Assembly: GCA_016214545.1 (NCBI GenBank)
Contig: JACROH010000001.1
Location: forward strand, 189,750-253,749
Direction: 5' to 3'
DNA from: Candidatus Lloydbacteria bacterium
Lineage (GTDB): Bacteria; Patescibacteriota; Minisyncoccia; Phycocordibacterales; 21-14-all-47-15
DNA length: 64,000 bases
Shown: one piece after another, positions 6,536 through 44,941 of the stretch
Layout: each line of letters begins with the position of its first letter
How positions within the stretch are numbered: position 1 is the stretch's first letter
Translations under genes and position numbers: made by a program
Notes under the pieces: model-generated
Seen by the model: only the letters and a program-made list of their open reading frames with translations
Told to the model about the DNA's origin: nothing
The model's database searches: none

Positions 6536-9500
6536 ATGCAAAAAAAATATTTTTCGAAGTATCGCCCGCCGCTTATCACGTTGCCCAATTTGGTGCAAAC
6601 GCAGGTTGATTCATATAAGTGGCTTCTTGATGCCGGTTTAAAAGAGCTTTTCATGGAGTTTTCGCCGCTCAACGATTACACCGGAGACAAATTCACTCTT
6701 GAATTTTTGTCGGTGGAAGTGGGGGAGCCGAAGCATGACGAATTTTACGCAAAAGAAAACAAAATGTCATACGAAGCCCCGCTTCGTGTGAAAGTGCGTC
6801 TGACCAACAAGTATCTAAAGACGGCCAAAGAACAAGAAATGTTTTTGGCTGATTTTCCGCTCATGACCAAGCATGGAACGTTCGTTATCAACGGCGTTGA
6901 GCGTGTCGTGGTGCCTCAGCTTGCCCGAAGCTTCGGCGCGTTCTTTACGCTGCAAGAATTGAAAGGAAAGCCCTATTTTGGCGCAAAAATAATTCCTGCC
7001 CGCGGAGCATGGATTGAAGTCGAGTCGGAAGTCGACGGCGCTCTCTATGTGCGCATTGACCGTAAAAGAAAATTTACCGCGACGGCTCTGCTTCGCGCTT
7101 TTGGCAACATCGACTCCGACGAGGATGTATTAAAATTGTTCCACGGAAATGAGCTCGCCCAGGCGGTGGTGAAAGCAACCTTGCATAAGGATTCGGCAAA
7201 GACCGCCAACGAAGCCTATATCGAAATCTATAAAAAATTGCGCGACGGAGAGCTCGCTTCTGCGGCAAACGCCCGCGACTTTTTCAAAAATATTTTCAGC
7301 GCGGAACGGTATGACATGTCGCGCGTAGGGCGGTTCCGTTTCAACAAGCGTTTTGGGAAAGGAATGTCTCAAGGTGATATGGAAAGGACGACCATTTCAG
7401 TGGATGACATTGCCACTATTGTTGCGCATATTGTTACACTGAATAATACGCCGGGAGCGCAGGAAGACGATATTGACCACTTGGGTTCGCGCCGCGTCCG
7501 TGCCGTGGGAGAAATGATGCAGCAAAAACTCCGCGTCGGGTTGTCACAAATAAAACGACAAATTCAAGACCGAATGTCCACCATCGACCAGGATTCAACC
7601 TTGCCGATTCATTTTATCAATGCGCGTCCGCTTCAAGCGCGAATGAAAGAATTCTTTACGACAAACCAATTGTCGCAATTTATGATGCAGGAAAATATCC
7701 TGTACGAAATTGAACACTTGCGCCGTCTTTCCGCGCTTGGCCCCGGAGGGCTCACTCGTGAACGCGCCGGTTTCGAAGTGCGCGACGTGCACCCGTCTCA
7801 TTATGGCCGCGTATGTCCTATTCAAACGCCGGAAGGCCCGAACATCGGTCTTATTCTGACGCTCTCTTCGTATGCCCGCGTGAACGATTTCGGCATCATT
7901 GAAACGCCGTATGTCAAAGTGGATAATGGAAACATTACCGGAAAAGTAGAATATATGAACGCTCTGGAAGAAGAAAGTTTTAACATTGCGCACGCGGCTA
8001 TTCCATACGAAAACAATGTCATTCGTGAGGACATGGTTGAGGTACGTTCAGGCGGACGTCCGAAAATGGTTCCCAAGAAAGAGGTGCACTATATCGACGT
8101 TGCGCCAAACCAGGCATTTTCTATCGCGGCTTCGACCATTCCTTTCTTGGAGCACAACGATGCGAACCGAGCACTCATGGGTTCAAACATGCAGAAACAA
8201 GCGACACCATGTGTCGTGCCGGAAGCGCCTATTGTGGCAACCGGAGTTGAAGAAATGGCAGCAAAAGACAGCGGAAGAATTATTGTCGCCGAAGAAGACG
8301 GTGTCGTGCATGCTGCCGATGCGCGCAAAATCGTTATTCAAAACAGCAAAGGGAAAGAGACCGCCTATCCGCTTGTTACTTTTTCTCGTACAAACGGCTT
8401 TACCGCGTTTCATCAGCGTCCGTCGGTTGATGTCGGAGAGAAAGTGAAAAAAGGAGCGATTCTTGCCGACACTTCTTCGTCTGATCGCGGGCAGATCGCT
8501 TTGGGGCAAAATGTCCGTGTCGCGTTCATGTCATGGAGCGGTGCAAACTATGAAGACGCGATTATTCTTTCTGAACGATTGGTAAAAAACAGCAAATTCA
8601 CAAGTATCCACATGGATGAGTTTGTCGTCAATGTTCGCGATACAAAATTGGGACCGGAAATCACCACGCACGATATTCCGAATGTCGGAGAATCAAAATT
8701 GAAAGATTTGGATGAAGACGGGGTGGTCCGTATTGGAGCCGAAGTGCGTCCAAATGATATTTTAGTCGGGAAAATTACGCCGAAGGGCGAGACGGAATTG
8801 ACGCCTGAAGAGCGTTTGCTCCGCTCTATTTTCGGAGAAAAAGCGCGTGATGTGAAAGATACGTCGCTCCGCATGGAGCACGGCAAGCAGGGCCGAGTAG
8901 TCGGCGTGAAGGTTTTTTCTCGCGAGCGCGGCGACCAGCTGGAATCGGGCATTATCAAGCGCATTCATATTGAAGTGGCGCAGCTGCGAAATGTTTCCGT
9001 GGGAGACAAACTTGCCGGACGCCACGGCAACAAAGGTGTTATTTCAAAAATTCTTCCTGAAGAAGATATGCCCTATACTGCGGACGGCAATCCGATTGAT
9101 GTTATTCTGACGCCGCTTGGGGTGCCTTCCCGCATGAACCTGGGGCAGATTCTTGAATTGCACTTGGGGCTTGCCGCGAACACTCTTGGGTATCAGGCAA
9201 TCACTCCGACCTTCTTGGGCGCTACCGATAAAGAAATTAAAGAAGAGCTCGTTAAGGCGGGATACCCCGAAAACGGAAAAGTGCCGCTCTATGACGGACG
9301 CACCGGAGAATCTTTTGAGCAGGATATCGCCATCGGATACATGTACATTATGAAGTTGCACCACATGGTGGAAGACAAAATACACATGCGTTCTATCGGT
9401 CCGTATTCTCTCATTACCCAGCAGCCGCTCGGAGGAAAGGCGCAGGGAGGAGGTCAGCGTTTCGGAGAAATGGAGGTCTGGGCTCTTGAAGGATATGGTG

Positions 9501-40786: not shown

Positions 40787-41659
40787 TTATGTTGATTTGG
40801 CTCCCGAATTAAAACTTTCGCAAACTTTTGAAATCATTTTGCCAAATCTGATACACAAATCCAAGAAGCGAAATCTGAAGTGAACCGCCTCGCTTCGCTC
40901 GGCGGAACGCTCGGGCGTGGCGGAATTCCTCCCCCCAGCCCCCTCCTTCCGCCACGCCCTCGCTTTGCCGGCGAAAAATTTCTGCGGCTGTTTTAATTCG
41001 TTGATCCCCAAAATAACAAAAACTTGTAAAACAGTAAGAGGATAATTCCATCTATCAGGCAAAAATCTTAAATGATATTTCTCTTCGTTATAGATAAATT
41101 GAACTTGGGCATTCGGCGCAACTAATATCTGCTCTGTCGGCACCAATTGCACAGCTTGAGGTGCCGGATTACAATTTATAAGCACACTTTGTATCTTTTC
41201 TAATTCTTGAATCAAATTTCCTATAGATGCCTTTTGCTGAAAAATAATTCCTGAGTTTGGAGAAAAAGTATATTCTTTGCCGTTCAGATTACATTGCATC
41301 ATGATATCAATATCCTTTTCGTATTTTGGTTCGGTAACAGCGAAAATAAACTGGGATTGGTTCGTAGTCTGAAGATCGAAGCGTAGAAAAGTGAGGCGAG
41401 CGAAAAAATCCAACCTTTCCAAAGTTGATGATATCGCGTCTATTTCATTCTCAATACTAGCGTTCCTTTCTGAATCAATCACTTTAACCTTCTCGCATTT
41501 TACTCCATCGCATTCTCGCTTGAATCTGATCGTATAATCTTGTGGAGTCAACTTATTTACAATAAGATAAGCTCCACCAAAAATAACAAGAATAATCAGC
41601 ACAAATCGTGCTAATTGATAAATGCTTTGCTTTTTTGGTATTTCCCAATTTTTACACAT
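40787..41659 (-). CDS. Membrane-anchored hypothetical protein, fourth gene of the R-M operon
   Basis: Its ATG overlaps the nuclease stop (TAATG). One N-terminal TM segment (LARFVLIILVIFGGAYLIV). The last ~55 codons are read from IR-L sequence and the stop lies beyond the IR. Confidence 0.55.
   Translation of the reverse strand: MCKNWEIPKKQSIYQLARFVLIILVIFGGAYLIVNKLTPQDYTIRFKRECDGVKCEKVKVIDSERNASIENEIDAISSTLERLDFFARLTFLRFDLQTTNQSQFIFAVTEPKYEKDIDIMMQCNLNGKEYTFSPNSGIIFQQKASIGNLIQELEKIQSVLINCNPAPQAVQLVPTEQILVAPNAQVQFIYNEEKYHLRFLPDRWNYPLTVLQVFVILGINELKQPQKFFAGKARAWRKEGAGGRNSATPERSAERSEAVHFRFRFLDLCIRFGKMISKVCESFNSGAKST
40795..40804 (+). repeat. Direct repeat ATTTGGCTCC, left copy (TSD-like)
   Basis: An identical 10-mer lies at 43681-43690, just outside the other IR terminus. 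Confidence 0.7.
40807..40965. repeat. Inverted repeat, left copy (IR-L)
   Basis: The reverse complement matches 43529-43683. 40821-40917 is 100% identical to 43573-43669. Confidence 0.9.
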
Positions 41660-42456
41660 TATAAAATTGTTGTTTTCTTTTCGTACAACATAGGCAAAGC
41701 GTCCTGTCTCATGCGGAATTTTGTGCCGTGATTGTGTCCGGTACGAGCGTCAAAATCTACAAGGATTTTCCCTTCGTCCAACGCCTTCAAAAATCCTTCA
41801 AAATTGAATTTCTGCAACATCATTACTTTTGTGTAATGGTAAAATTCCTTTTCCCGGACGATTTTCACTTCGGCCTGAACATAAAAAGCGTTGAGTAGTT
41901 TTGTTCCTGCCTTATGTTCCAAATCGTCAAAACCCCAATATGGTTGTGGATCAAGTTCACCGAGGCCGACACGCTTCTTCACGGACTCAACCCATGCTTT
42001 GTGCCGCAAGTCCGCACTTTTTGCATCAAATGAAATCAAAATCTTTTTCTCTTTCCGGTCAATCACGACCTTAAAGCCCCGATCACTTCGTGACTGTCCG
42101 TGGATTGTTTGCCGGAAACTCATCTCTCCTTTGGGATATTTTTTGCCGTCCTCTTGGTGTGCCCAACCATATTTTGGCAAGAGGACTTGTGGCACGAAAC
42201 GAATTGCGCGCGGCGAGGGCTCAATATGGAAAAGTGTTGTGAGCGAGGTGGAATTAAGACGCTGCGCTTTCAATTCCCATTCTGCGGCGTTGGGAATTGG
42301 CAAATTATTTTCTTTGATACCGAGCAAATCTTCCAAAGTATTGCCGATGCCGCCAGCATTGCCTCGCCGCGCATTCGGTACAAATCCCATTGCTGAAATT
42401 TCTTTTAGTTTTGCAATCAGCTCTGGCTTTGTATAAGTCTTAGGCTTGTTTTTCAT
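41659..42456 (-). CDS. Type II restriction endonuclease (MutH/Sau3AI or MvaI-BcnI-like)
   Basis: GNAGGIGNTLEDLLGI...AEWELKA resembles the N-terminal nuclease pattern of that fold. 17-nt overlap with the methyltransferase gene. Confidence 0.6.
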   Translation of the reverse strand: MKNKPKTYTKPELIAKLKEISAMGFVPNARRGNAGGIGNTLEDLLGIKENNLPIPNAAEWELKAQRLNSTSLTTLFHIEPSPRAIRFVPQVLLPKYGWAHQEDGKKYPKGEMSFRQTIHGQSRSDRGFKVVIDRKEKKILISFDAKSADLRHKAWVESVKKRVGLGELDPQPYWGFDDLEHKAGTKLLNAFYVQAEVKIVREKEFYHYTKVMMLQKFNFEGFLKALDEGKILVDFDARTGHNHGTKFRMRQDALPMLYEKKTTIL

Positions 42457-43219
42457 ATGTAGGTTGGAATAGTTTAGCTTGAGATTGATGTTGTTTTATT
42501 CTCTTTTCTGCCATTTCGCAATACTCCGGTGAGATATCAATGCCGATATAATCTCGGCCAAAGTTTATTGCAGAAATCGCTGTTGTACCCGAGCCCATAA
42601 ATGGGTCCAAAACAACCTTTGCATCTGTTGATCCGACAATTCTATCAATCAAACTGACCGGAAAGGCGGCGGGGTGGTCATTGTTCATCTCTTGCGTAAA
42701 CTCCCAGACATCGCCGTGCGCATTTGCTTTGGTTTTCAACATAAACTTCGACTTGGCGATAAGGTAAACAACTTCGTAAGTCGGGAGGAAATATCCGGGA
42801 TTGAAATTGAGGCCACCTTTCCGCTTCCAAATAATTATTTGTCGGACGGGAAATCCACTCACGATGTCTTGGCGGTCTTGCAATAAGCCGCCCTGCACAC
42901 GCCATTTGTGATTGTAGAAAATTGCACCGTCCTCCGGTATCAAACGCAACATTTCGATCAAACAATCTCTTTGCCACTTCACATACTCATCGTGCGGCAT
43001 ACAATCATTGTGGTGCGAATAGCCCTTTTGCAGGGCGGCATTTGCCCACTTTCCGCCTCGCCCGTCTTTCATTCCATTTCCGGTTGAATTTTTGAGATTG
43101 TAAGGCGGTGAAGTAACAATCAAATCAACCGAGCCGTCCGGCAATTCCTTCATAACATCGACAGCAGAACCGCAGACGATTTTGTTGAGATATTTCTTTT
43201 TGAAATCTGTTTTTGTCAT
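42440..43219 (-). CDS. DNA methyltransferase, beta class (N4-cytosine or N6-adenine)
   Basis: Motif IV DLIVTSPPY near the N-terminus and motif I VLDPFMGSGTT near the C-terminus. Confidence 0.9.
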   Translation of the reverse strand: MTKTDFKKKYLNKIVCGSAVDVMKELPDGSVDLIVTSPPYNLKNSTGNGMKDGRGGKWANAALQKGYSHHNDCMPHDEYVKWQRDCLIEMLRLIPEDGAIFYNHKWRVQGGLLQDRQDIVSGFPVRQIIIWKRKGGLNFNPGYFLPTYEVVYLIAKSKFMLKTKANAHGDVWEFTQEMNNDHPAAFPVSLIDRIVGSTDAKVVLDPFMGSGTTAISAINFGRDYIGIDISPEYCEMAEKRIKQHQSQAKLFQPTYEKQA

Positions 43220-43221
43220 AT

Positions 43222-43422
43222 CTATTTTTTCAAAAGATCATCAACTGAAACCCCAAGGGCTTTCGCAATCCTTTGGATTGTCTCAATGGTAGGGTTAGGA
43301 CTTTCGTCCAACTCTATCTTAACAACTGTATTTAAAGACAAATCAGCAAGTTTAGAGAGCTTATCTTGCGAAAGCCCCTTGTCTTGACGAAATTTTTTGA
43401 TGTTCTTGCCTATTGTGGACAT
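43222..43422 (-). CDS. Controller (C) protein, XRE-type HTH, 66 aa
   Basis: LSQDKLSKLADLSLNTVVKIE. Lies directly upstream of the methyltransferase. TATAAT 5 nt before the ATG suggests a leaderless mRNA. Confidence 0.75.
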   Translation of the reverse strand: MSTIGKNIKKFRQDKGLSQDKLSKLADLSLNTVVKIELDESPNPTIETIQRIAKALGVSVDDLLKK

Positions 43423-43528
43423 AGTAGATTATAATGTATGGAAAGTGATATAATACTTATATGACTTGCAAATCAATTATAACAACTTTCCATTCTTTTC
43501 TCAATGCCGCAAAAAAATCTGTCCGTCC

Positions 43529-43683
43529 AAGCGAGGGAGTGGCGGAAGGAGGGTGTGGGGGGAATTCCGTCGCGCCCGAGCGTTCCGCCGAGCGAAGCGA
43601 GGCGGTTCACTTCAGATTTCGCTTCTTGGATTTGTGTATCAGATTTGGCAAAATGATTTCAAAAGTTTGTGAGGGTTTTAATT
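43529..43683. repeat. Inverted repeat, right copy (IR-R)
   Basis: See IR-L. The ORF-track 153-aa ORF across it is not considered real. Confidence 0.9.
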
Positions 43684-43690
43684 TGGCTCC
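43681..43690 (+). repeat. Direct repeat ATTTGGCTCC, right copy (TSD-like)
   Basis: Abuts the IR-R terminus and overlaps the start of the tRNA-Asn 3' fragment. Confidence 0.7.
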
Positions 43691-43703
43691 GCGGGTAGGA
43701 TTC
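43686..43703 (-). repeat. Duplicated tRNA-Asn 3' end (18 nt)
   Basis: GCTCCGCGGGTAGGATTC is identical to 43861-43878. Confidence 0.9.
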
Positions 43704-43814
43704 TCGGTTTACAACCGCAGTATAGGTTTCCCATCCCGACGTGACGTCGGGATATGGGAGAACCTTTTCGAATCCTGCATGCAAAGCAAGCAGTTGCTTT
43801 GCTCCGCGGAGCTT

Positions 43815-43846
43815 AAAAAATCAAAAACCCCCAAGATTGTGGGGGT
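43815..43846 (-). terminator. Intrinsic terminator after tRNA-Asn
   Basis: Minus strand CCCCCA-CAATCT-TGGGGG followed by TTTTTGATTTTTT. Confidence 0.7.
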
Positions 43847-43861
43847 TAAGATTTTTACAAG

Positions 43862-43933
43862 CTCCGCGGGTAGGATTCGAACCTACGACCAACCGGTTAA
43901 CAGCCGGACGCTCTACCACTGAGCTACCGCGGA
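43862..43933 (-). tRNA. tRNA-Asn (anticodon GTT), 72 nt, no encoded CCA
   Basis: Hand-folded cloverleaf: TCCGCGG / GCTC-AGTGGTA-GAGC / TCCGG-CTGTTAA-CCGGT / TGGTC / GTAGG-TTCGAAT-CCTAC / CCGCGGA-G. Confidence 0.92.
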
Positions 43934-44172
43934 ATGCATATGTTCTTTTTAATGTACTTTCTACCAACCGCGCTCTTCAAGTATTTTTCTCGCTTTCTAG
44001 CTTCTGCCAGTAGTGAGTATTCTTCCGAATGGATAATTATCCACGGAAGAAATTTACTCGTATAGTTATGTTTACCAGAATTGTGCTCTTTTAGCCTACG
44101 TTCTAAATCGGTTGTACTTCCAACATATGTTTTTGGAAATTTTTCACTTTTTAAAATATAGACATAAGCCAT
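43924..44172 (-). CDS. Small stand-alone GIY-YIG domain protein (82 aa)
   Basis: YVYILKS...TYVGSTTDLERRLKEHN...EARKREKYLK. The stop codon TAG is tRNA-Asn nt 8-10. ATG 44172 is preferred over the 121-aa track ORF. Confidence 0.75.
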   Translation of the reverse strand: MAYVYILKSEKFPKTYVGSTTDLERRLKEHNSGKHNYTSKFLPWIIIHSEEYSLLAEARKREKYLKSAVGRKYIKKNICIPR

Positions 44173-44173
44173 A

Positions 44174-44233
44174 ACCACTGAGCTACCCGCTTCGCGTCGA
44201 CGAGAAGCGCGAGTCGAGGCGGGCCGCGGAATG
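44174..44233 (-). repeat. Second, interrupted copy of the tRNA-Asn 5' region
   Basis: CATTCCGCGG + 38-nt GC-rich insert + TAGCTCAGTGGT. The uninterrupted 22-mer is at 43915-43936. Confidence 0.85.
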
Positions 44234-44260
44234 TTTTGTTCTATAAAAGAACGTGAGTGC

Positions 44261-44289
44261 ATAGTATCAAAAATAGCCGTGTCGGGCAA
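44261..44289 (-). promoter_or_regulatory. Candidate promoter for the GIY-YIG/tRNA-Asn unit
   Basis: Minus strand TTGCCC, 17-nt spacer, TACTAT. Confidence 0.4.
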
Positions 44290-44310
44290 GAATACGCTAT
44301 ACTTTAAAAT

Positions 44311-44535
44311 ATGTATATCAGAGTGAATGCCGTTGCCGGCGCAAAAAAGGAATCGGTGAAAGAGATAGGAGAGAATCGCCTGGAAATTTCCGTTCGCGAA
44401 CCGGCAGAGAGAAACATGGCCAATAAGCGTATTGCCCTACTTGTGGCAGCGCATTACGGGGTAGCGCCAAAAGCCGCGCGTCTTATCAATGGACACCGCT
44501 CGCCGCACAAGCTTTTTTCTATCCACGGGAAATAA
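44311..44535 (+). CDS. DUF167 / YggU-family protein
   Basis: IRVNAVAGAKKESV...LEISVREPAERNMANKRIALLVA pattern. Confidence 0.7.
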   Translation: MYIRVNAVAGAKKESVKEIGENRLEISVREPAERNMANKRIALLVAAHYGVAPKAARLINGHRSPHKLFSIHGK

Positions 44536-44572
44536 CTTTGCCCGCAAAAAGCGCTTAAGGTATAATGAAAAT

Positions 44573-44941
44573 ATGCGCACCTCAATAAAAACAACTCGTT
44601 TAATATTAACATCGGCCATTTCGGATTATATCGATAAAAAAATTACCGATATTGAAAAATTTGTCGACAAAGAAGACCAAAGTGCCGCGGTGCATGTTGA
44701 AATTGAAAAGACGACGGCGCATCATCACGCTGGCGATATTTTCCGCGCAGAAATAAATTTGCACATCGCCGGAAAAGACTTTCGTGCCGAAGCAACCAAA
44801 GAAGATTTATACGCGGCGCTCGATGAAATAAAAGATGAAATCATACGGGAATTGTCTTCACACAAAACCAAGAAGCAAACGCTTATCAAAAAGGGCGGAA
44901 GATTAATAAAGAGCCGCTTGCGCGGGCTTTCGCAGGAGTGA
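44573..44941 (+). CDS. hpf: Ribosome hibernation promoting factor (short HPF/RaiA)
   Basis: LTSAISDYIDKKI...VHVEIEKT...FRAEINLHIAGKDFRAEATKEDLYAALDEIKDEI. ATG 44573 is preferred. Confidence 0.85.
   Translation: MRTSIKTTRLILTSAISDYIDKKITDIEKFVDKEDQSAAVHVEIEKTTAHHHAGDIFRAEINLHIAGKDFRAEATKEDLYAALDEIKDEIIRELSSHKTKKQTLIKKGGRLIKSRLRGLSQE

What the first reader, a model, noticed from the sequence alone, without database searches (positions are those of the whole stretch)
43915..44233. GIY-YIG ORF wedged between two copies of the tRNA-Asn 5' end, with its stop codon inside the tRNA
Seen (minus strand): the 22-mer CATTCCGCGGTAGCTCAGTGGT (3 nt of 5' flank plus tRNA nt 1-19) forms the start of the intact tRNA-Asn at 43936-43915. 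It occurs again at 44233-44174, where it is split after CGG by a 38-nt GC-rich, hairpin-capable insert (CCCGCCTCGACTCGCGCTTCTCGTCGACGCGAAGCGGG). The 82-codon GIY-YIG ORF fills exactly the space between the copies. Its ATG begins 1 nt after the upstream copy (no SD), and its last codons TGC ATT CCG CGG TAG are the downstream copy, so TAG equals tRNA nt 8-10. A TTGCCC-17-TACTAT promoter lies upstream of the whole unit. Established: GIY-YIG domains are the catalytic modules of homing endonucleases, and tRNA-targeting integrative elements usually restore the tRNA 3' end. Inference: this is a self-restoring insertion that carries a replacement tRNA 5' end, a mirror image of classic tRNA-targeting islands. 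If so, the displaced original 5' fragment has since been hit by a small palindromic element. I do not know of this arrangement being described.
Basis: partly seen in the sequence, partly recalled or inferred. Interest (0 to 1): 0.7.

Follow-up and report, generated by a model that had tools for sequence, protein, structure and literature searches.

The report
GIY-YIG nuclease cassette inside tRNA-Asn
A tiny nuclease gene and a GC-rich hairpin sit inside the start of a tRNA gene that stays intact because its first 22 bases are duplicated; the same layout recurs at many tRNA genes in CPR and Bacteroidota bacteria, which points to an apparently undescribed family of tRNA-resident selfish elements.

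Summary
tRNA-Asn(GTT) lies at 43933-43861 (minus strand). An 82-aa GIY-YIG ORF (44172-43924) ends on TAG, which is tRNA nt 8-10. The 22-mer CATTCCGCGGTAGCTCAGTGGT recurs upstream at 44233-44174, split after CGG by a 38-nt GC-rich palindrome (H).

It is not a one-off. Of 81 loci encoding relatives (CPR, Bacteroidota, Ignavibacteria), 57 have the ORF abutting or running into the 5' end of a same-strand tRNA. These are Asn, Gln, Arg, Ala, Met and Lys genes, each with a displaced tRNA 5' stub upstream. Twelve more loci show the mirror image, with a tRNA 3' stub. The stubs almost always carry H.

H is inserted precisely (tRNA nt k then k+1), in either orientation, and sometimes twice or in tandem. 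It is 43 times denser near these ORFs than elsewhere. So H is a constant partner of the ORF, not a chance later hit.

A syntenic relative (L087) has tRNA-Asn/YggU/HPF/PPIase with no ORF, stub or H.

The protein has a confident GIY-YIG fold, closest to UPF0213 and SLX1. The nearest described system is Ssn, a single-domain GIY-YIG ssDNA nuclease with hairpin repeats. The closest match in layout is the fungal mitochondrial mobile ORF that carries a replacement gene end.

I found no description of the tRNA-embedded arrangement. How it moves is inferred, not shown.

The parts
44261..44289 (-). Possible promoter TTGCCC-17-TACTAT, with TG before the -10 hexamer, upstream of the whole unit. It would be the displaced tRNA promoter.
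   Evidence: Read from the sequence. Only 8 of 12 consensus positions match, so the scan did not report it. Inferred, weak.
44224..44233 (-). Displaced tRNA stub, part a: CATTCCGCGG (3 nt of leader plus tRNA nt 1-7)
   Evidence: Exact repeat of 43936-43927 (family D14)
44186..44223 (-). H: a 38-nt GC-rich palindromic mini-element inserted exactly between tRNA nt 7 and 8 of the stub, at a GG^TAG site
   Evidence: (I7). Homologous hairpins with the consensus CCCGCCTCG...CGAGGCGGG occupy the stubs of the other CPR loci. The window copy is inverted relative to the L004 copy: 32 against 13 alignment score.
44174..44185 (-). Displaced tRNA stub, part b: TAGCTCAGTGGT (tRNA nt 8-19). It ends 1 nt before the ATG.
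   Evidence: Exact repeat of 43926-43915 (family D4)
43924..44172 (-). 82-aa single-domain GIY-YIG nuclease gene. It has no stop codon of its own; the stop TAG is tRNA nt 8-10.
   Evidence: Pfam PF01541 at 1.6e-16. 100% identical to an NCBI 'GIY-YIG nuclease family protein' from Candidatus Lloydbacteria. Y5, Y16, G18, R26 and E62 are invariant in 40 homologues. AlphaFold pLDDT 91.3; best PDB matches are UPF0213 BH0048 and SLX1.
43861..43933 (-). Intact tRNA-Asn(GTT). Its first 19 nt plus 3 nt of leader form the downstream copy of the repeat (43936-43915).
   Evidence: ARAGORN; Rfam tRNA 73.3 bits, E 8.6e-16
43816..43847 (-). Terminator-like hairpin AACCCCCACAATCTTGGGGGTT plus a T-run, after the tRNA
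43685..43812 (-). Rearranged second tRNA-Asn copy (pseudo-tRNA). It keeps the acceptor 5' strand TCCGCGG and the exact 18-nt 3' end. The interior is replaced or split by palindromic inserts.
   Evidence: (D1). DNA fold -44.5 kcal/mol, z = -10.6. No Rfam family. A comparable H-split second tRNA-Asn copy is present in L001.

Best explanation
The ORF and the 38-nt palindrome are two parts of one compact selfish cassette that lives inside tRNA genes.

Part one is a bare GIY-YIG nuclease of the small UPF0213/SLX1-like type, the same general kind as the Ssn ssDNA nucleases. Part two is a 20-50-nt GC-rich hairpin mini-element (H).

Shown here:
- The cassette is bracketed by a direct duplication of the tRNA 5' segment.
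- The downstream copy runs on into a complete tRNA-Asn, so the host keeps its tRNA.
- The upstream copy is a dead stub, with H inserted cleanly at GG^TAG (tRNA nt 7/8).
- The ORF has no stop codon of its own and reads into the tRNA.
- The nearest terminator-like site (43847-43816) lies after the tRNA.
- The layout, its 3'-end mirror version, tandem arrays of it, and ORF lineages that follow tRNA identity all recur across CPR and Bacteroidota.

Inferred:
- The unit is transcribed from the displaced tRNA promoter as a long 5' leader of the pre-tRNA. RNase P cleavage would then remove the stop codon from the message, which should keep nuclease output low.
- The nuclease acts on structured or single-stranded DNA at H or at the tRNA gene.
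- The resulting breaks are repaired by recombination between the tRNA-derived repeats or with an occupied allele. That copies the cassette into cognate tRNA genes (homing-like spread) and expands or contracts arrays.
- H, which prefers conserved tRNA motifs, becomes fixed only in redundant tRNA copies, because an insertion into the sole intact copy would be lethal.
For: Anatomy in the window.

Recurrence:
- Of 81 loci, 57 have the ORF directly 5' of a same-strand tRNA, 12 are the 3' type and 12 are unresolved.
- In 39 of the 57, the stop codon lies inside the tRNA: nt 8-10 in 18, nt 21-23 in 19.
- Eleven of the 40 aligned homologues end in ...IPR*, which is the translation of ATT CCG CGG TAG.

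The stub:
- In 33 of 34 5'-type loci, the best upstream match to the ORF-end/tRNA junction is the tRNA 5' part.

H:
- It is present in the stubs of the CPR tRNA-Asn and tRNA-Gln loci and of the Bacteroidota Arg, Ala, Met and Lys loci.
- In 42 of 53 detected H, the flanks map to consecutive tRNA nucleotides.
- Fourteen of 17 CPR insertions lie at GG^TAG.
- Two H occur in one stub in L042 and L062, and three in tandem in L005.
- Both orientations occur, even at the same site.
- Density is 0.69 per kb near the ORFs against 0.016 per kb elsewhere.
- The arms covary: 53 double-change cells against 29.6 +/- 4.5 in shuffles, 0 of 500 shuffles as high.

Mirror type and arrays:
- L035, L054, L072, L074, L037 and L046 are the 3' type.
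- L015 has 3 units before an intact tRNA-Arg. L030 has an intact tRNA-Glu followed by 5 units.

Empty site:
- L087 has the same tRNA-Asn/YggU/HPF/PPIase synteny, with no ORF, stub or H.

ORF lineages:
- In the NJ tree, ORFs group by tRNA identity across host classes.
- Same tRNA in a different host class gives 58-59% identity; same host class with a different tRNA gives 51%.

Protein:
- Catalytic residues are invariant.
- The fold is closest to UPF0213 and SLX1, which are structure-specific nucleases.

Precedents:
- Ssn: a roughly 94-aa single-domain GIY-YIG ssDNA nuclease that binds and cuts next to hairpin repeats flanking its own gene (PMC11893778).
- Fungal mitochondrial mobile ORFs that bring a replacement gene end and displace the native one (PMC3630166).
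Against: - No nuclease activity, cleavage site or transposition event is shown.
- The only empty site found is in a distant relative (PPIase 53% identical), so no recent gain or loss is documented.
- An 82-aa domain has no obvious DNA-recognition module.
- Because the tRNA is regenerated intact, a simple homing model would leave the target cleavable.
- In several loci the stub is preceded by a copy of the ORF's own 3' tail (up to 34 nt in L022). This is better explained by local tandem duplication and decay of ORF-tRNA units than by fresh insertion into a naive tRNA.
- ORF clades that follow tRNA identity could also reflect old vertical association.
- The published SRM search pattern of the Ssn paper matches none of these hairpins.
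- The two repeat copies in the window are identical, so nothing shows that the 5' end next to the ORF is foreign.
- Co-transcription and the promoter are not verified.
Confidence: 0.6

Rival explanations
1. Passive local history. An ORF-tRNA unit was duplicated in tandem by ordinary unequal recombination, and the redundant upstream copy decayed to a stub. The nuclease plays no part in moving anything, and the ORF is inherited vertically next to its tRNA.
For: Tandem arrays exist (L015, L030, L035). Stubs are often preceded by a remnant of the ORF tail. Stub length varies from 14 to about 62 nt, like a decay series. The repeat copies are near-identical.
Against: It does not explain why the same ORF family is attached to at least 10 different tRNA identities in distant phyla. 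It also does not explain the existence of both 5' and 3' versions, the precisely inserted homologous hairpin in nearly every redundant copy, or the absence of the cassette from the syntenic L087 site.
Confidence: 0.15
2. Host function. The small GIY-YIG protein is a housekeeping or repair/processing factor deliberately co-expressed with a tRNA. The stub plus hairpin is a regulatory leader, for example an attenuator, a processing signal or a decoy.
For: Protein sequence is strongly conserved across phyla, 55-70% identity with invariant catalytic residues. The ORF is tightly and consistently coupled to the tRNA 5' end. The family is very large: 5,623 clusters at E <= 1e-10.
Against: Distribution is patchy and multi-copy, with arrays of 3-5. 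The partner tRNA differs between lineages. A mirror-image version exists, and H occurs in both orientations and at different positions, which is unlike a leader with a fixed structure. The cassette is absent from the syntenic locus L087.
Confidence: 0.12
3. One reading: a self-restoring GIY-YIG insertion whose displaced stub was later hit, by chance, by an unrelated small palindromic element.
For: H is a clean insert into the stub, at nt 7|8, with no loss of tRNA bases. It can lie in either orientation.
Against: The same hairpin family is found in the redundant tRNA piece of nearly every related locus and is 43-fold enriched there. Only one canonical copy exists in the 64-kb window.
Confidence: 0.03
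4. Remnant of a classical integrase-type genomic island, or of a group I intron carrying a homing endonuclease gene, in a tRNA gene.
For: tRNA genes are common targets of both. An 18-nt repeat of the tRNA 3' end and a restriction-modification cassette lie just downstream.
Against: The roughly 300-nt unit contains no integrase. The duplication flanking the ORF is of the 5' end. No ribozyme was found: the only Rfam match reaching its gathering score in 43300-44700 is the tRNA, even in the permissive scan. The ORF is not in the anticodon loop.
Confidence: 0.03

Closest known systems
Ssn family: SsnA with NTS/SRM hairpin repeats (Chenal et al. 2025, PMC11893778)
   Same: A single-domain GIY-YIG protein of about 80-100 aa with no extra DNA-binding domain. 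Its gene is accompanied by cognate GC-rich hairpin-forming repeats that are enriched next to it. The authors note an IS-like architecture. Recognition of ssDNA hairpins would fit H.
   Different: Ssn repeats are described as dispersed, in hundreds of copies, flanking the gene on both sides. No link to tRNA genes, CPR or Bacteroidota is mentioned. The published SRM pattern matches none of the hairpins here. Membership of cd10448 could not be tested.
Fungal mitochondrial mobile ORFs (LAGLIDADG or GIY-YIG) that carry a replacement gene terminus: Allomyces atp6; Glomus atp6, atp9, cox2 and nad3 (PMC3630166)
   Same: A free-standing endonuclease ORF is inserted in a gene. The gene end is duplicated, so one functional copy remains and the displaced piece is dead. 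The ORF can lack its own stop codon or be in phase with the host gene. The topology is identical to the 3'-type loci and mirrors the window.
   Different: The host is a protein-coding mitochondrial gene, not a bacterial tRNA. The carried end is demonstrably foreign, whereas here the copies are identical. Those cases have no obligatory hairpin mini-element in the displaced piece.
Phage T4 SegB and other free-standing GIY-YIG homing endonucleases (PMC2330249)
   Same: A GIY-YIG gene sitting among or next to tRNA genes, with a target in the tRNA gene region. Inheritance is by break-induced gene conversion.
   Different: Seg proteins are much larger and have DNA-binding domains. They produce no tRNA-part duplication, have no hairpin partner, and do not overlap the tRNA.
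REP/BIME with RAYT, and IS200/IS605 (HUH transposases acting on ssDNA hairpins)
   Same: A small enzyme gene associated with short palindromic hairpin elements that insert without target duplication.
   Different: The enzyme chemistry is unrelated: HUH enzymes form a covalent intermediate, whereas GIY-YIG nucleases hydrolyse. Those elements have no preference for tRNA genes.
Integrase-type tRNA-targeting islands and prophages
   Same: They use a tRNA gene as a landing site and keep it functional by duplicating part of it.
   Different: They need a tyrosine or serine recombinase, duplicate the 3' part, and are kilobases long. Here a roughly 300-nt unit without a recombinase duplicates the 5' part, or the 3' part in the mirror type.
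UPF0213 proteins (BH0048, EF2693; E. coli YhbQ, by recollection only) and the SLX1 nuclease domain
   Same: These are the best sequence and fold matches. SLX1 cuts branched and structured DNA.
   Different: The function of UPF0213 proteins is unknown. SLX1 has an extra zinc-finger domain and works with SLX4.

Membership tests
GIY-YIG nuclease superfamily | Sequence match to the GIY-YIG catalytic domain, with the conserved Tyr, Tyr, Arg and Glu residues | tested here: met
   Pfam PF01541 at 1.6e-16, covering residues 1-72. Y5, Y16, G18, R26 and E62 are invariant in 40 homologues.
GIY-YIG nuclease superfamily | GIY-YIG fold: a three-stranded sheet flanked by helices | tested here: met
   AlphaFold pLDDT 91.3, secondary structure beta-beta-alpha-alpha-beta-alpha-alpha. 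Foldseek hits are UPF0213 BH0048, SLX1, I-TevI and UvrC-N.
Ssn ssDNA nucleases (cd10448) | Single-domain GIY-YIG protein of about 90-100 aa | tested here: met
   82 aa, one domain
Ssn ssDNA nucleases (cd10448) | Falls in the cd10448 / SsnA clade | not testable with these tools
   No CDD model or SsnA reference sequence was available. The paper's supplements are not held.
Ssn ssDNA nucleases (cd10448) | Gene flanked by SRM repeats matching HGTCWYN(0-2)YYVSBRHN(0-5)WNVSBRGN(0-2)RNCYNB | tested here: not met
   0 matches within -250..+550 nt of any ORF in 81 loci; 3 matches elsewhere. The pattern does match the Neisseria NTS control.
Ssn ssDNA nucleases (cd10448) | A cognate hairpin repeat enriched next to the gene (the functional analogue of SRM) | tested here: met
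   H occurs at 0.69 per kb near the ORFs against 0.016 per kb elsewhere. The arms covary.
Ssn ssDNA nucleases (cd10448) | Site-specific cleavage of ssDNA only, next to the hairpin | not testable with these tools
   Needs biochemistry
Free-standing GIY-YIG homing endonucleases (I-TevI / Seg type) | Catalytic domain joined to a DNA-binding domain | tested here: not met
   82 aa in total. The NCBIfam group I intron endonuclease model matches only residues 1-36, at 25 bits against a cutoff of 56.
Free-standing GIY-YIG homing endonucleases (I-TevI / Seg type) | Presence/absence polymorphism at the same site in related genomes | tested here: inconclusive
   One syntenic empty site was found (L087), but in a distant relative with PPIase 53% identical.
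Free-standing GIY-YIG homing endonucleases (I-TevI / Seg type) | Cleavage of the unoccupied allele | not testable with these tools
   Needs biochemistry
Mobile ORFs carrying a replacement gene end (fungal mitochondrial mORF type) | Endonuclease ORF lying between a functional gene and a displaced duplicate of the gene end | tested here: met
   Window; 57 5'-type and 12 3'-type loci
Mobile ORFs carrying a replacement gene end (fungal mitochondrial mORF type) | The ORF-linked copy is of foreign origin, diverged from the native displaced copy | tested here: inconclusive
   The two copies are identical in the window (22 of 22) and differ by 0-1 positions in the longer stubs. This gives no resolution.
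Integrase-type tRNA islands | Tyrosine or serine recombinase gene within the element | tested here: not met
   The only ORF between the repeats is the GIY-YIG gene.
Group I intron with a homing endonuclease gene in a tRNA gene | Ribozyme core; insertion in the anticodon loop | tested here: not met
   No Rfam intron match at E <= 10. The ORF lies upstream of tRNA nt 1, and the stub ends at nt 19.

The most novel reading that the evidence does not exclude
This is a previously unrecognised class of recombinase-free selfish elements specialised on tRNA genes, widespread in CPR and Bacteroidota. It has two parts. The first is an Ssn-like bare GIY-YIG nuclease gene fused to the tRNA, with its stop codon supplied by the tRNA itself. 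The second is a 20-50-nt GC-rich hairpin mini-element that inserts without target duplication, in either orientation, at conserved tRNA motifs: GG^TAG, U8-A9^G10, the D-loop, the anticodon loop and the T-loop. Together they drive partial tRNA gene duplication, array formation and spread to cognate tRNA genes in other genomes. This would give the Ssn-type ssDNA nucleases a natural biological role.
Probability: 0.4. Interest if true: 0.85.

Novelty: new variant of a known kind. Interest (0 to 1): 0.75.

Why it matters
tRNA genes are the classic landing sites of integrase-bearing islands. This would be a roughly 300-nt, recombinase-free way of occupying them, in both a 5'-end and a 3'-end version.

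- It would link the newly described single-domain GIY-YIG/hairpin (Ssn-type) nucleases to a concrete genomic behaviour.
- It would explain thousands of 'GIY-YIG nuclease family protein' annotations next to tRNAs. It would also explain many pseudo-tRNA fragments, and gene calls that are wrongly extended at the N terminus.
- It shows a protein-coding gene that borrows its stop codon from the invariant U8-A9-G10 of a tRNA. That implies a built-in link between RNase P processing and nuclease expression.
- The hairpin's apparent specificity for conserved tRNA motifs could be useful as a tool.
- Because these elements rearrange tRNA loci in CPR bacteria, they bear on tRNA gene annotation in reduced genomes.

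Tried and rejected
- Exact-protein context look-up of the window ORF: not on record.
- Rfam at permissive thresholds over 43300-44700: only the tRNA reaches its gathering score; there is no intron, riboswitch or family for H or the pseudo-tRNA.
- Published Ssn SRM pattern: no match to H. The Ssn paper's supplements are not held, so SsnA could not be compared directly.
- NCBIfam: only a sub-threshold N-terminal match to the group I intron endonuclease model.
- Search for close relatives of the window through the PPIase neighbour in metagenomes: the best hit is only 63% identical, and only 1 of 80 loci keeps the tRNA-Asn synteny. No recent insertion polymorphism could be shown.
- Viral contigs: only weak relatives, at most 49% identity. 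Two show the same ORF-tRNA abutment, one of them at the extreme end of its contig, so these are probably host flanks. There is no sign that phages carry the cassette.
- A third tRNA-3'-end-like hit at 6991-7008 lies inside a coding region and is chance.
- The idea that H always marks one boundary of the inserted unit was dropped, because some stubs hold two H and H occurs in both orientations.
- A Campbell-type or staggered-cut (long TSD) origin was considered. It cannot explain the stubs that also repeat the ORF's own 3' tail.
- Literature: eight full-text searches found no description of GIY-YIG genes embedded in bacterial tRNA genes. The library covers open-access papers only.
Full report
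**1. The observation**

On the minus strand, ARAGORN finds tRNA-Asn(GTT) at 43933-43861. Rfam scores it 73.3 bits. The ORF 44172-43924 encodes 82 aa and matches Pfam GIY-YIG at 1.6e-16. It is 100% identical to an NCBI 'GIY-YIG nuclease family protein' from a Candidatus Lloydbacteria MAG, so the window comes from a CPR/Paceibacterota genome.

The ORF ends TGC ATT CCG CGG TAG, and the TAG is tRNA nt 8-10. The 22-mer CATTCCGCGGTAGCTCAGTGGT (43936-43915) recurs upstream as CATTCCGCGG (44233-44224) and TAGCTCAGTGGT (44185-44174). A 38-nt GC-rich palindrome (44223-44186) separates the two halves. Neither the 22-mer nor the 38-mer is expected by chance. The ATG follows the upstream copy by one base.

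The proposed promoter TTGCCC-17-TACTAT (44289-44261) matches only 8 of 12 consensus positions, and the scan does not report it. It remains a guess.

**2. The arrangement is general**

Homologues of the ORF gave the first clue. Eleven of the 40 closest proteins end in ...IPR, which is the translation of ATT CCG CGG before TAG. One reads on as NIPRPAS..., just as the window's frame does through the palindrome.

I examined the best 80 loci plus the window.

- In 57 of the 81 loci, the ORF lies directly 5' of a same-strand tRNA. The tRNAs are Asn, Gln, four Arg isoacceptors, Ala-GGC, Met and Lys (plus one doubtful tRNA-Ser call, L020).
- In 12 loci, it lies directly 3' of a tRNA (Leu, Glu, Cys, Ala, Arg).
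- Twelve loci are unresolved, partly because contigs are cut.
- Among the 57, the stop codon lies inside the tRNA in 39. It is at nt 8-10 in 18 (as in the window) and at nt 21-23 in 19. In most of the rest it lies 1-17 nt before the tRNA.

The hosts are Parcubacteria/Paceibacterota, Saccharibacteria, Nealson-, Roizman- and Brennerbacteria, many Flavobacteriaceae, Cyclobacteriaceae, Chitinophagaceae, Saprospiraceae, Ignavibacteria and two gammaproteobacterial MAGs. A full profile search finds 5,623 clusters (at 50% identity) at E <= 1e-10. Many representatives carry 20-40 extra N-terminal residues. This is what a gene caller produces when it reads through the GC-rich hairpin.

**3. The displaced stub**

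In 33 of 34 5'-type loci, the best match between the 150 nt upstream of the ATG and the ORF-end/tRNA junction is the tRNA 5' part, often with a few leader bases. The stub ends anywhere from tRNA nt 14 to about nt 62.

The 3'-type loci are the mirror image: intact tRNA and terminator, then the ORF, then a tRNA 3' fragment with a second copy of the terminator. There the ORF often ends inside the fragment.

Tandem arrays occur. L015 has three [stub + ORF] units before an intact tRNA-Arg. L030 has an intact tRNA-Glu followed by five [ORF + disrupted tRNA-Glu copy] units. L035, L037, L064 and L012 have smaller arrays. L001 nests two ORFs, one intact tRNA-Asn and three disrupted pieces.

**4. The palindrome H is part of the system**

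Every CPR tRNA-Asn and tRNA-Gln locus has a GC-rich palindrome in its stub, with the consensus CCCGCCTCG...CGAGGCGGG and a length of 28-51 nt. Bacteroidota loci have CCTGCCTGCCGGCAGGCAGG or CCCGCCCG...CGGGCGGG.

- *Precision.* Of 53 detected H, 42 have flanks that map to consecutive tRNA nucleotides. The insertion is exact, with no target duplication.
- *Sites.* The sites cluster after nt 7, 9-11, 18, 21-22 and 32, and in the T-arm for the 3' type. Fourteen of 17 CPR insertions lie at GG^TAG, as in the window.
- *Multiplicity.* Some stubs have two H (L042, L062). L005 has three in tandem. L068 has a full tRNA-Arg copy with two.
- *Orientation.* H occurs in both orientations relative to the ORF, even at the same site. 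The window's H is the reverse complement of L004's (alignment score 32 against 13).
- *Structure.* The arms covary, with 82.6% of cells paired and 53 double changes against 29.6 +/- 4.5 in shuffles. The alignment was built from hairpins picked by a motif that fixes the outer seven positions of each arm, so only pair 7:18 and the three inner pairs count as independent covariation.
- *Distribution.* H is 43 times denser within -300..+600 nt of these ORFs than elsewhere in the same loci, although a few copies sit in ordinary intergenic DNA.
- *In the window.* The 64-kb window has one ORF and one canonical H.

H is therefore a discrete mini-element. It accompanies this ORF family and becomes fixed in redundant tRNA pieces. 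It is not a chance secondary hit.

**5. Evidence bearing on mobility**

A marine-sediment contig, L087, has the same order: tRNA-Asn (minus strand), YggU, HPF, PPIase. There, 151 nt separate the tRNA from YggU, against 377 nt in the window. L087 has no ORF, stub or H. It is a distant relative (PPIase 53% identical), so it shows presence/absence but not a recent event.

ORFs group by tRNA identity rather than by host class. The window falls in a clade of tRNA-Asn-linked ORFs from Lloyd-, Pacei-, Sacchari- and Nealsonbacteria, separate from a CPR tRNA-Gln clade. Mean identity is 58-59% for the same tRNA in a different host class, against 51% for the same class with a different tRNA.

Some evidence counts against simple de novo insertion. 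Several stubs are preceded by a copy of the ORF's own 3' tail, up to 34 nt in L022. That points to tandem duplication of ORF-tRNA units followed by decay of the upstream ORF.

**6. The protein**

Y5, Y16, G18, R26 and E62 are invariant. The AlphaFold model is confident, with pLDDT 91.3. Sequence profile and fold searches both place it nearest to UPF0213 proteins (1zg2, 1ywl) and the SLX1 nuclease domain, ahead of I-TevI and UvrC. It has no second domain.

**7. Comparison with what is known**

*Ssn family.* This is the closest described system (PMC11893778). Ssn proteins are single-domain GIY-YIG proteins of about 94 aa that bind and cut ssDNA next to hairpin repeats (NTS/SRM), and those repeats flank their own genes. 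The paper does not mention tRNA, Bacteroidota or CPR. Its SRM pattern matches none of the hairpins here. I could not test cd10448 membership.

*Fungal mitochondrial mobile ORFs.* These are the closest match in layout. They bring a replacement gene end and leave the native end as a dead duplicate (PMC3630166).

*T4 SegB.* This is a GIY-YIG homing enzyme in a tRNA cluster (PMC2330249), but it is multi-domain and causes no duplication.

*Excluded.* Integrase islands and group I introns are ruled out by content.

Eight full-text searches found no description of this arrangement.

**8. Most likely mechanism**

Shown:
- a nuclease gene plus hairpin cassette embedded in a tRNA gene;
- a duplicated tRNA part, with one intact copy;
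- the stop codon supplied by the tRNA;
- recurrence, arrays, and both a 5' and a 3' version;
- H as a precise, bidirectional insert restricted to redundant copies.

Inferred:
- The unit is transcribed from the displaced tRNA promoter as a pre-tRNA leader, so RNase P cleavage would remove the stop codon.
- The nuclease acts on structured or single-stranded DNA at H or at the tRNA gene.
- Breaks are repaired by recombination between the tRNA-derived repeats or with an occupied allele, which gives homing-like spread to cognate tRNAs and array expansion.
- H insertions into the sole intact tRNA are lethal and therefore never seen.

I give this 0.6. Passive duplication and decay gets 0.15, a host function 0.12, and the remaining readings are minor.

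**9. Verdict**

The arrangement appears to be an undescribed, widespread variant of known kinds of selfish nuclease elements. How it moves is still open.

Noticed in passing
window 43685-43812 (minus): A second, rearranged tRNA-Asn copy lies right after the tRNA terminator. It starts TCCGCGG-AGC and ends with the exact 18-nt tRNA 3' end. The D and anticodon arms are replaced by the hairpin GCAAAGCAA..TTGCTTTGC, and the T-loop is split by a roughly 65-nt insert containing the palindrome CCCGACGT/ACGTCGGG. It folds extremely stably (-44.5 kcal/mol, z = -10.6) and matches no Rfam family. It is probably an older disrupted copy, like those in L001 and L068, but an RNA function is not excluded.
   Followed up: partly
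window 40806-43680: A restriction-modification cassette is flanked by roughly 180-nt inverted repeats (40806-40985 plus strand, 43680-43505 minus strand), 94% identical over the well-aligned ~120-nt core (40840-40960). It contains an HTH C-protein-like gene (43422-43222), an N4/N6 DNA methylase (43219-42440), an MvaI/BcnI-family endonuclease (42456-41659, Pfam 2.3e-66) and an unknown 290-aa ORF (41659-40787). Each repeat holds a GC-rich hairpin, CCGCCTCGCTTCGCTCGGCGG, that resembles H (compare L043). The right repeat abuts the pseudo-tRNA 3' end. This may be a mobile R-M unit that uses H-like ends.
   Followed up: partly
L087 1-1600: A marine-sediment contig has the same gene order as the window: tRNA-Asn (minus), YggU, HPF, PPIase. 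It has no GIY-YIG ORF, stub or hairpin, so it is an unoccupied version of the site in a distant relative.
   Followed up: yes
L001 3140-4070: This tRNA-Asn locus is a nest of elements. In order: a stub with H at nt 18, ORF1, an intact tRNA-Asn, a second tRNA-Asn copy lacking nt 1-7 with H at nt 18, a divergent second GIY-YIG ORF, and another T-arm fragment with H.
   Followed up: partly
L002 7532, L003 7299, L006 1290, L018 3871, L045 1366: A few H-type hairpins (CCTGCCT(A/G)CCGG..AGGCAGG) lie in ordinary intergenic DNA, far from any GIY-YIG ORF or tRNA. H is therefore not strictly confined to tRNA pieces.
   Followed up: no
Proteins P0004, P0029, P0030, P0038, P0039 and many representatives: Database gene models of this family often carry 20-40 spurious N-terminal or C-terminal residues. 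These are translations of the GC-rich hairpin and tRNA stub (for example ...AEARRGG......NIPRPASPKAGE...). This is a systematic annotation artefact.
   Followed up: partly
L162 16-329 and L164 1289-1596 (IMG/VR contigs): The same ORF-runs-into-tRNA arrangement (tRNA-Cys, tRNA-Arg) appears on two 'viral' contigs, in L162 at the very end of the contig. These are probably host flanks of prophages integrated near these tRNAs.
   Followed up: no
window 44289-43924 (minus): The 38-nt insert shifts the frame, so the upstream TAG of the stub is bypassed. A 121-aa ORF is therefore open from a TTG at 44289, which coincides with the putative -35 hexamer, through the stub and H into the GIY-YIG gene. Homologue N-termini indicate that the real start is the ATG at 44172.
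   Followed up: yes
window 6991-7008 (plus): AATTCCTGCCCGCGGAGC resembles the tRNA-Asn 3' end with 3 mismatches. It lies inside a long coding region and is a chance match.
   Followed up: yes
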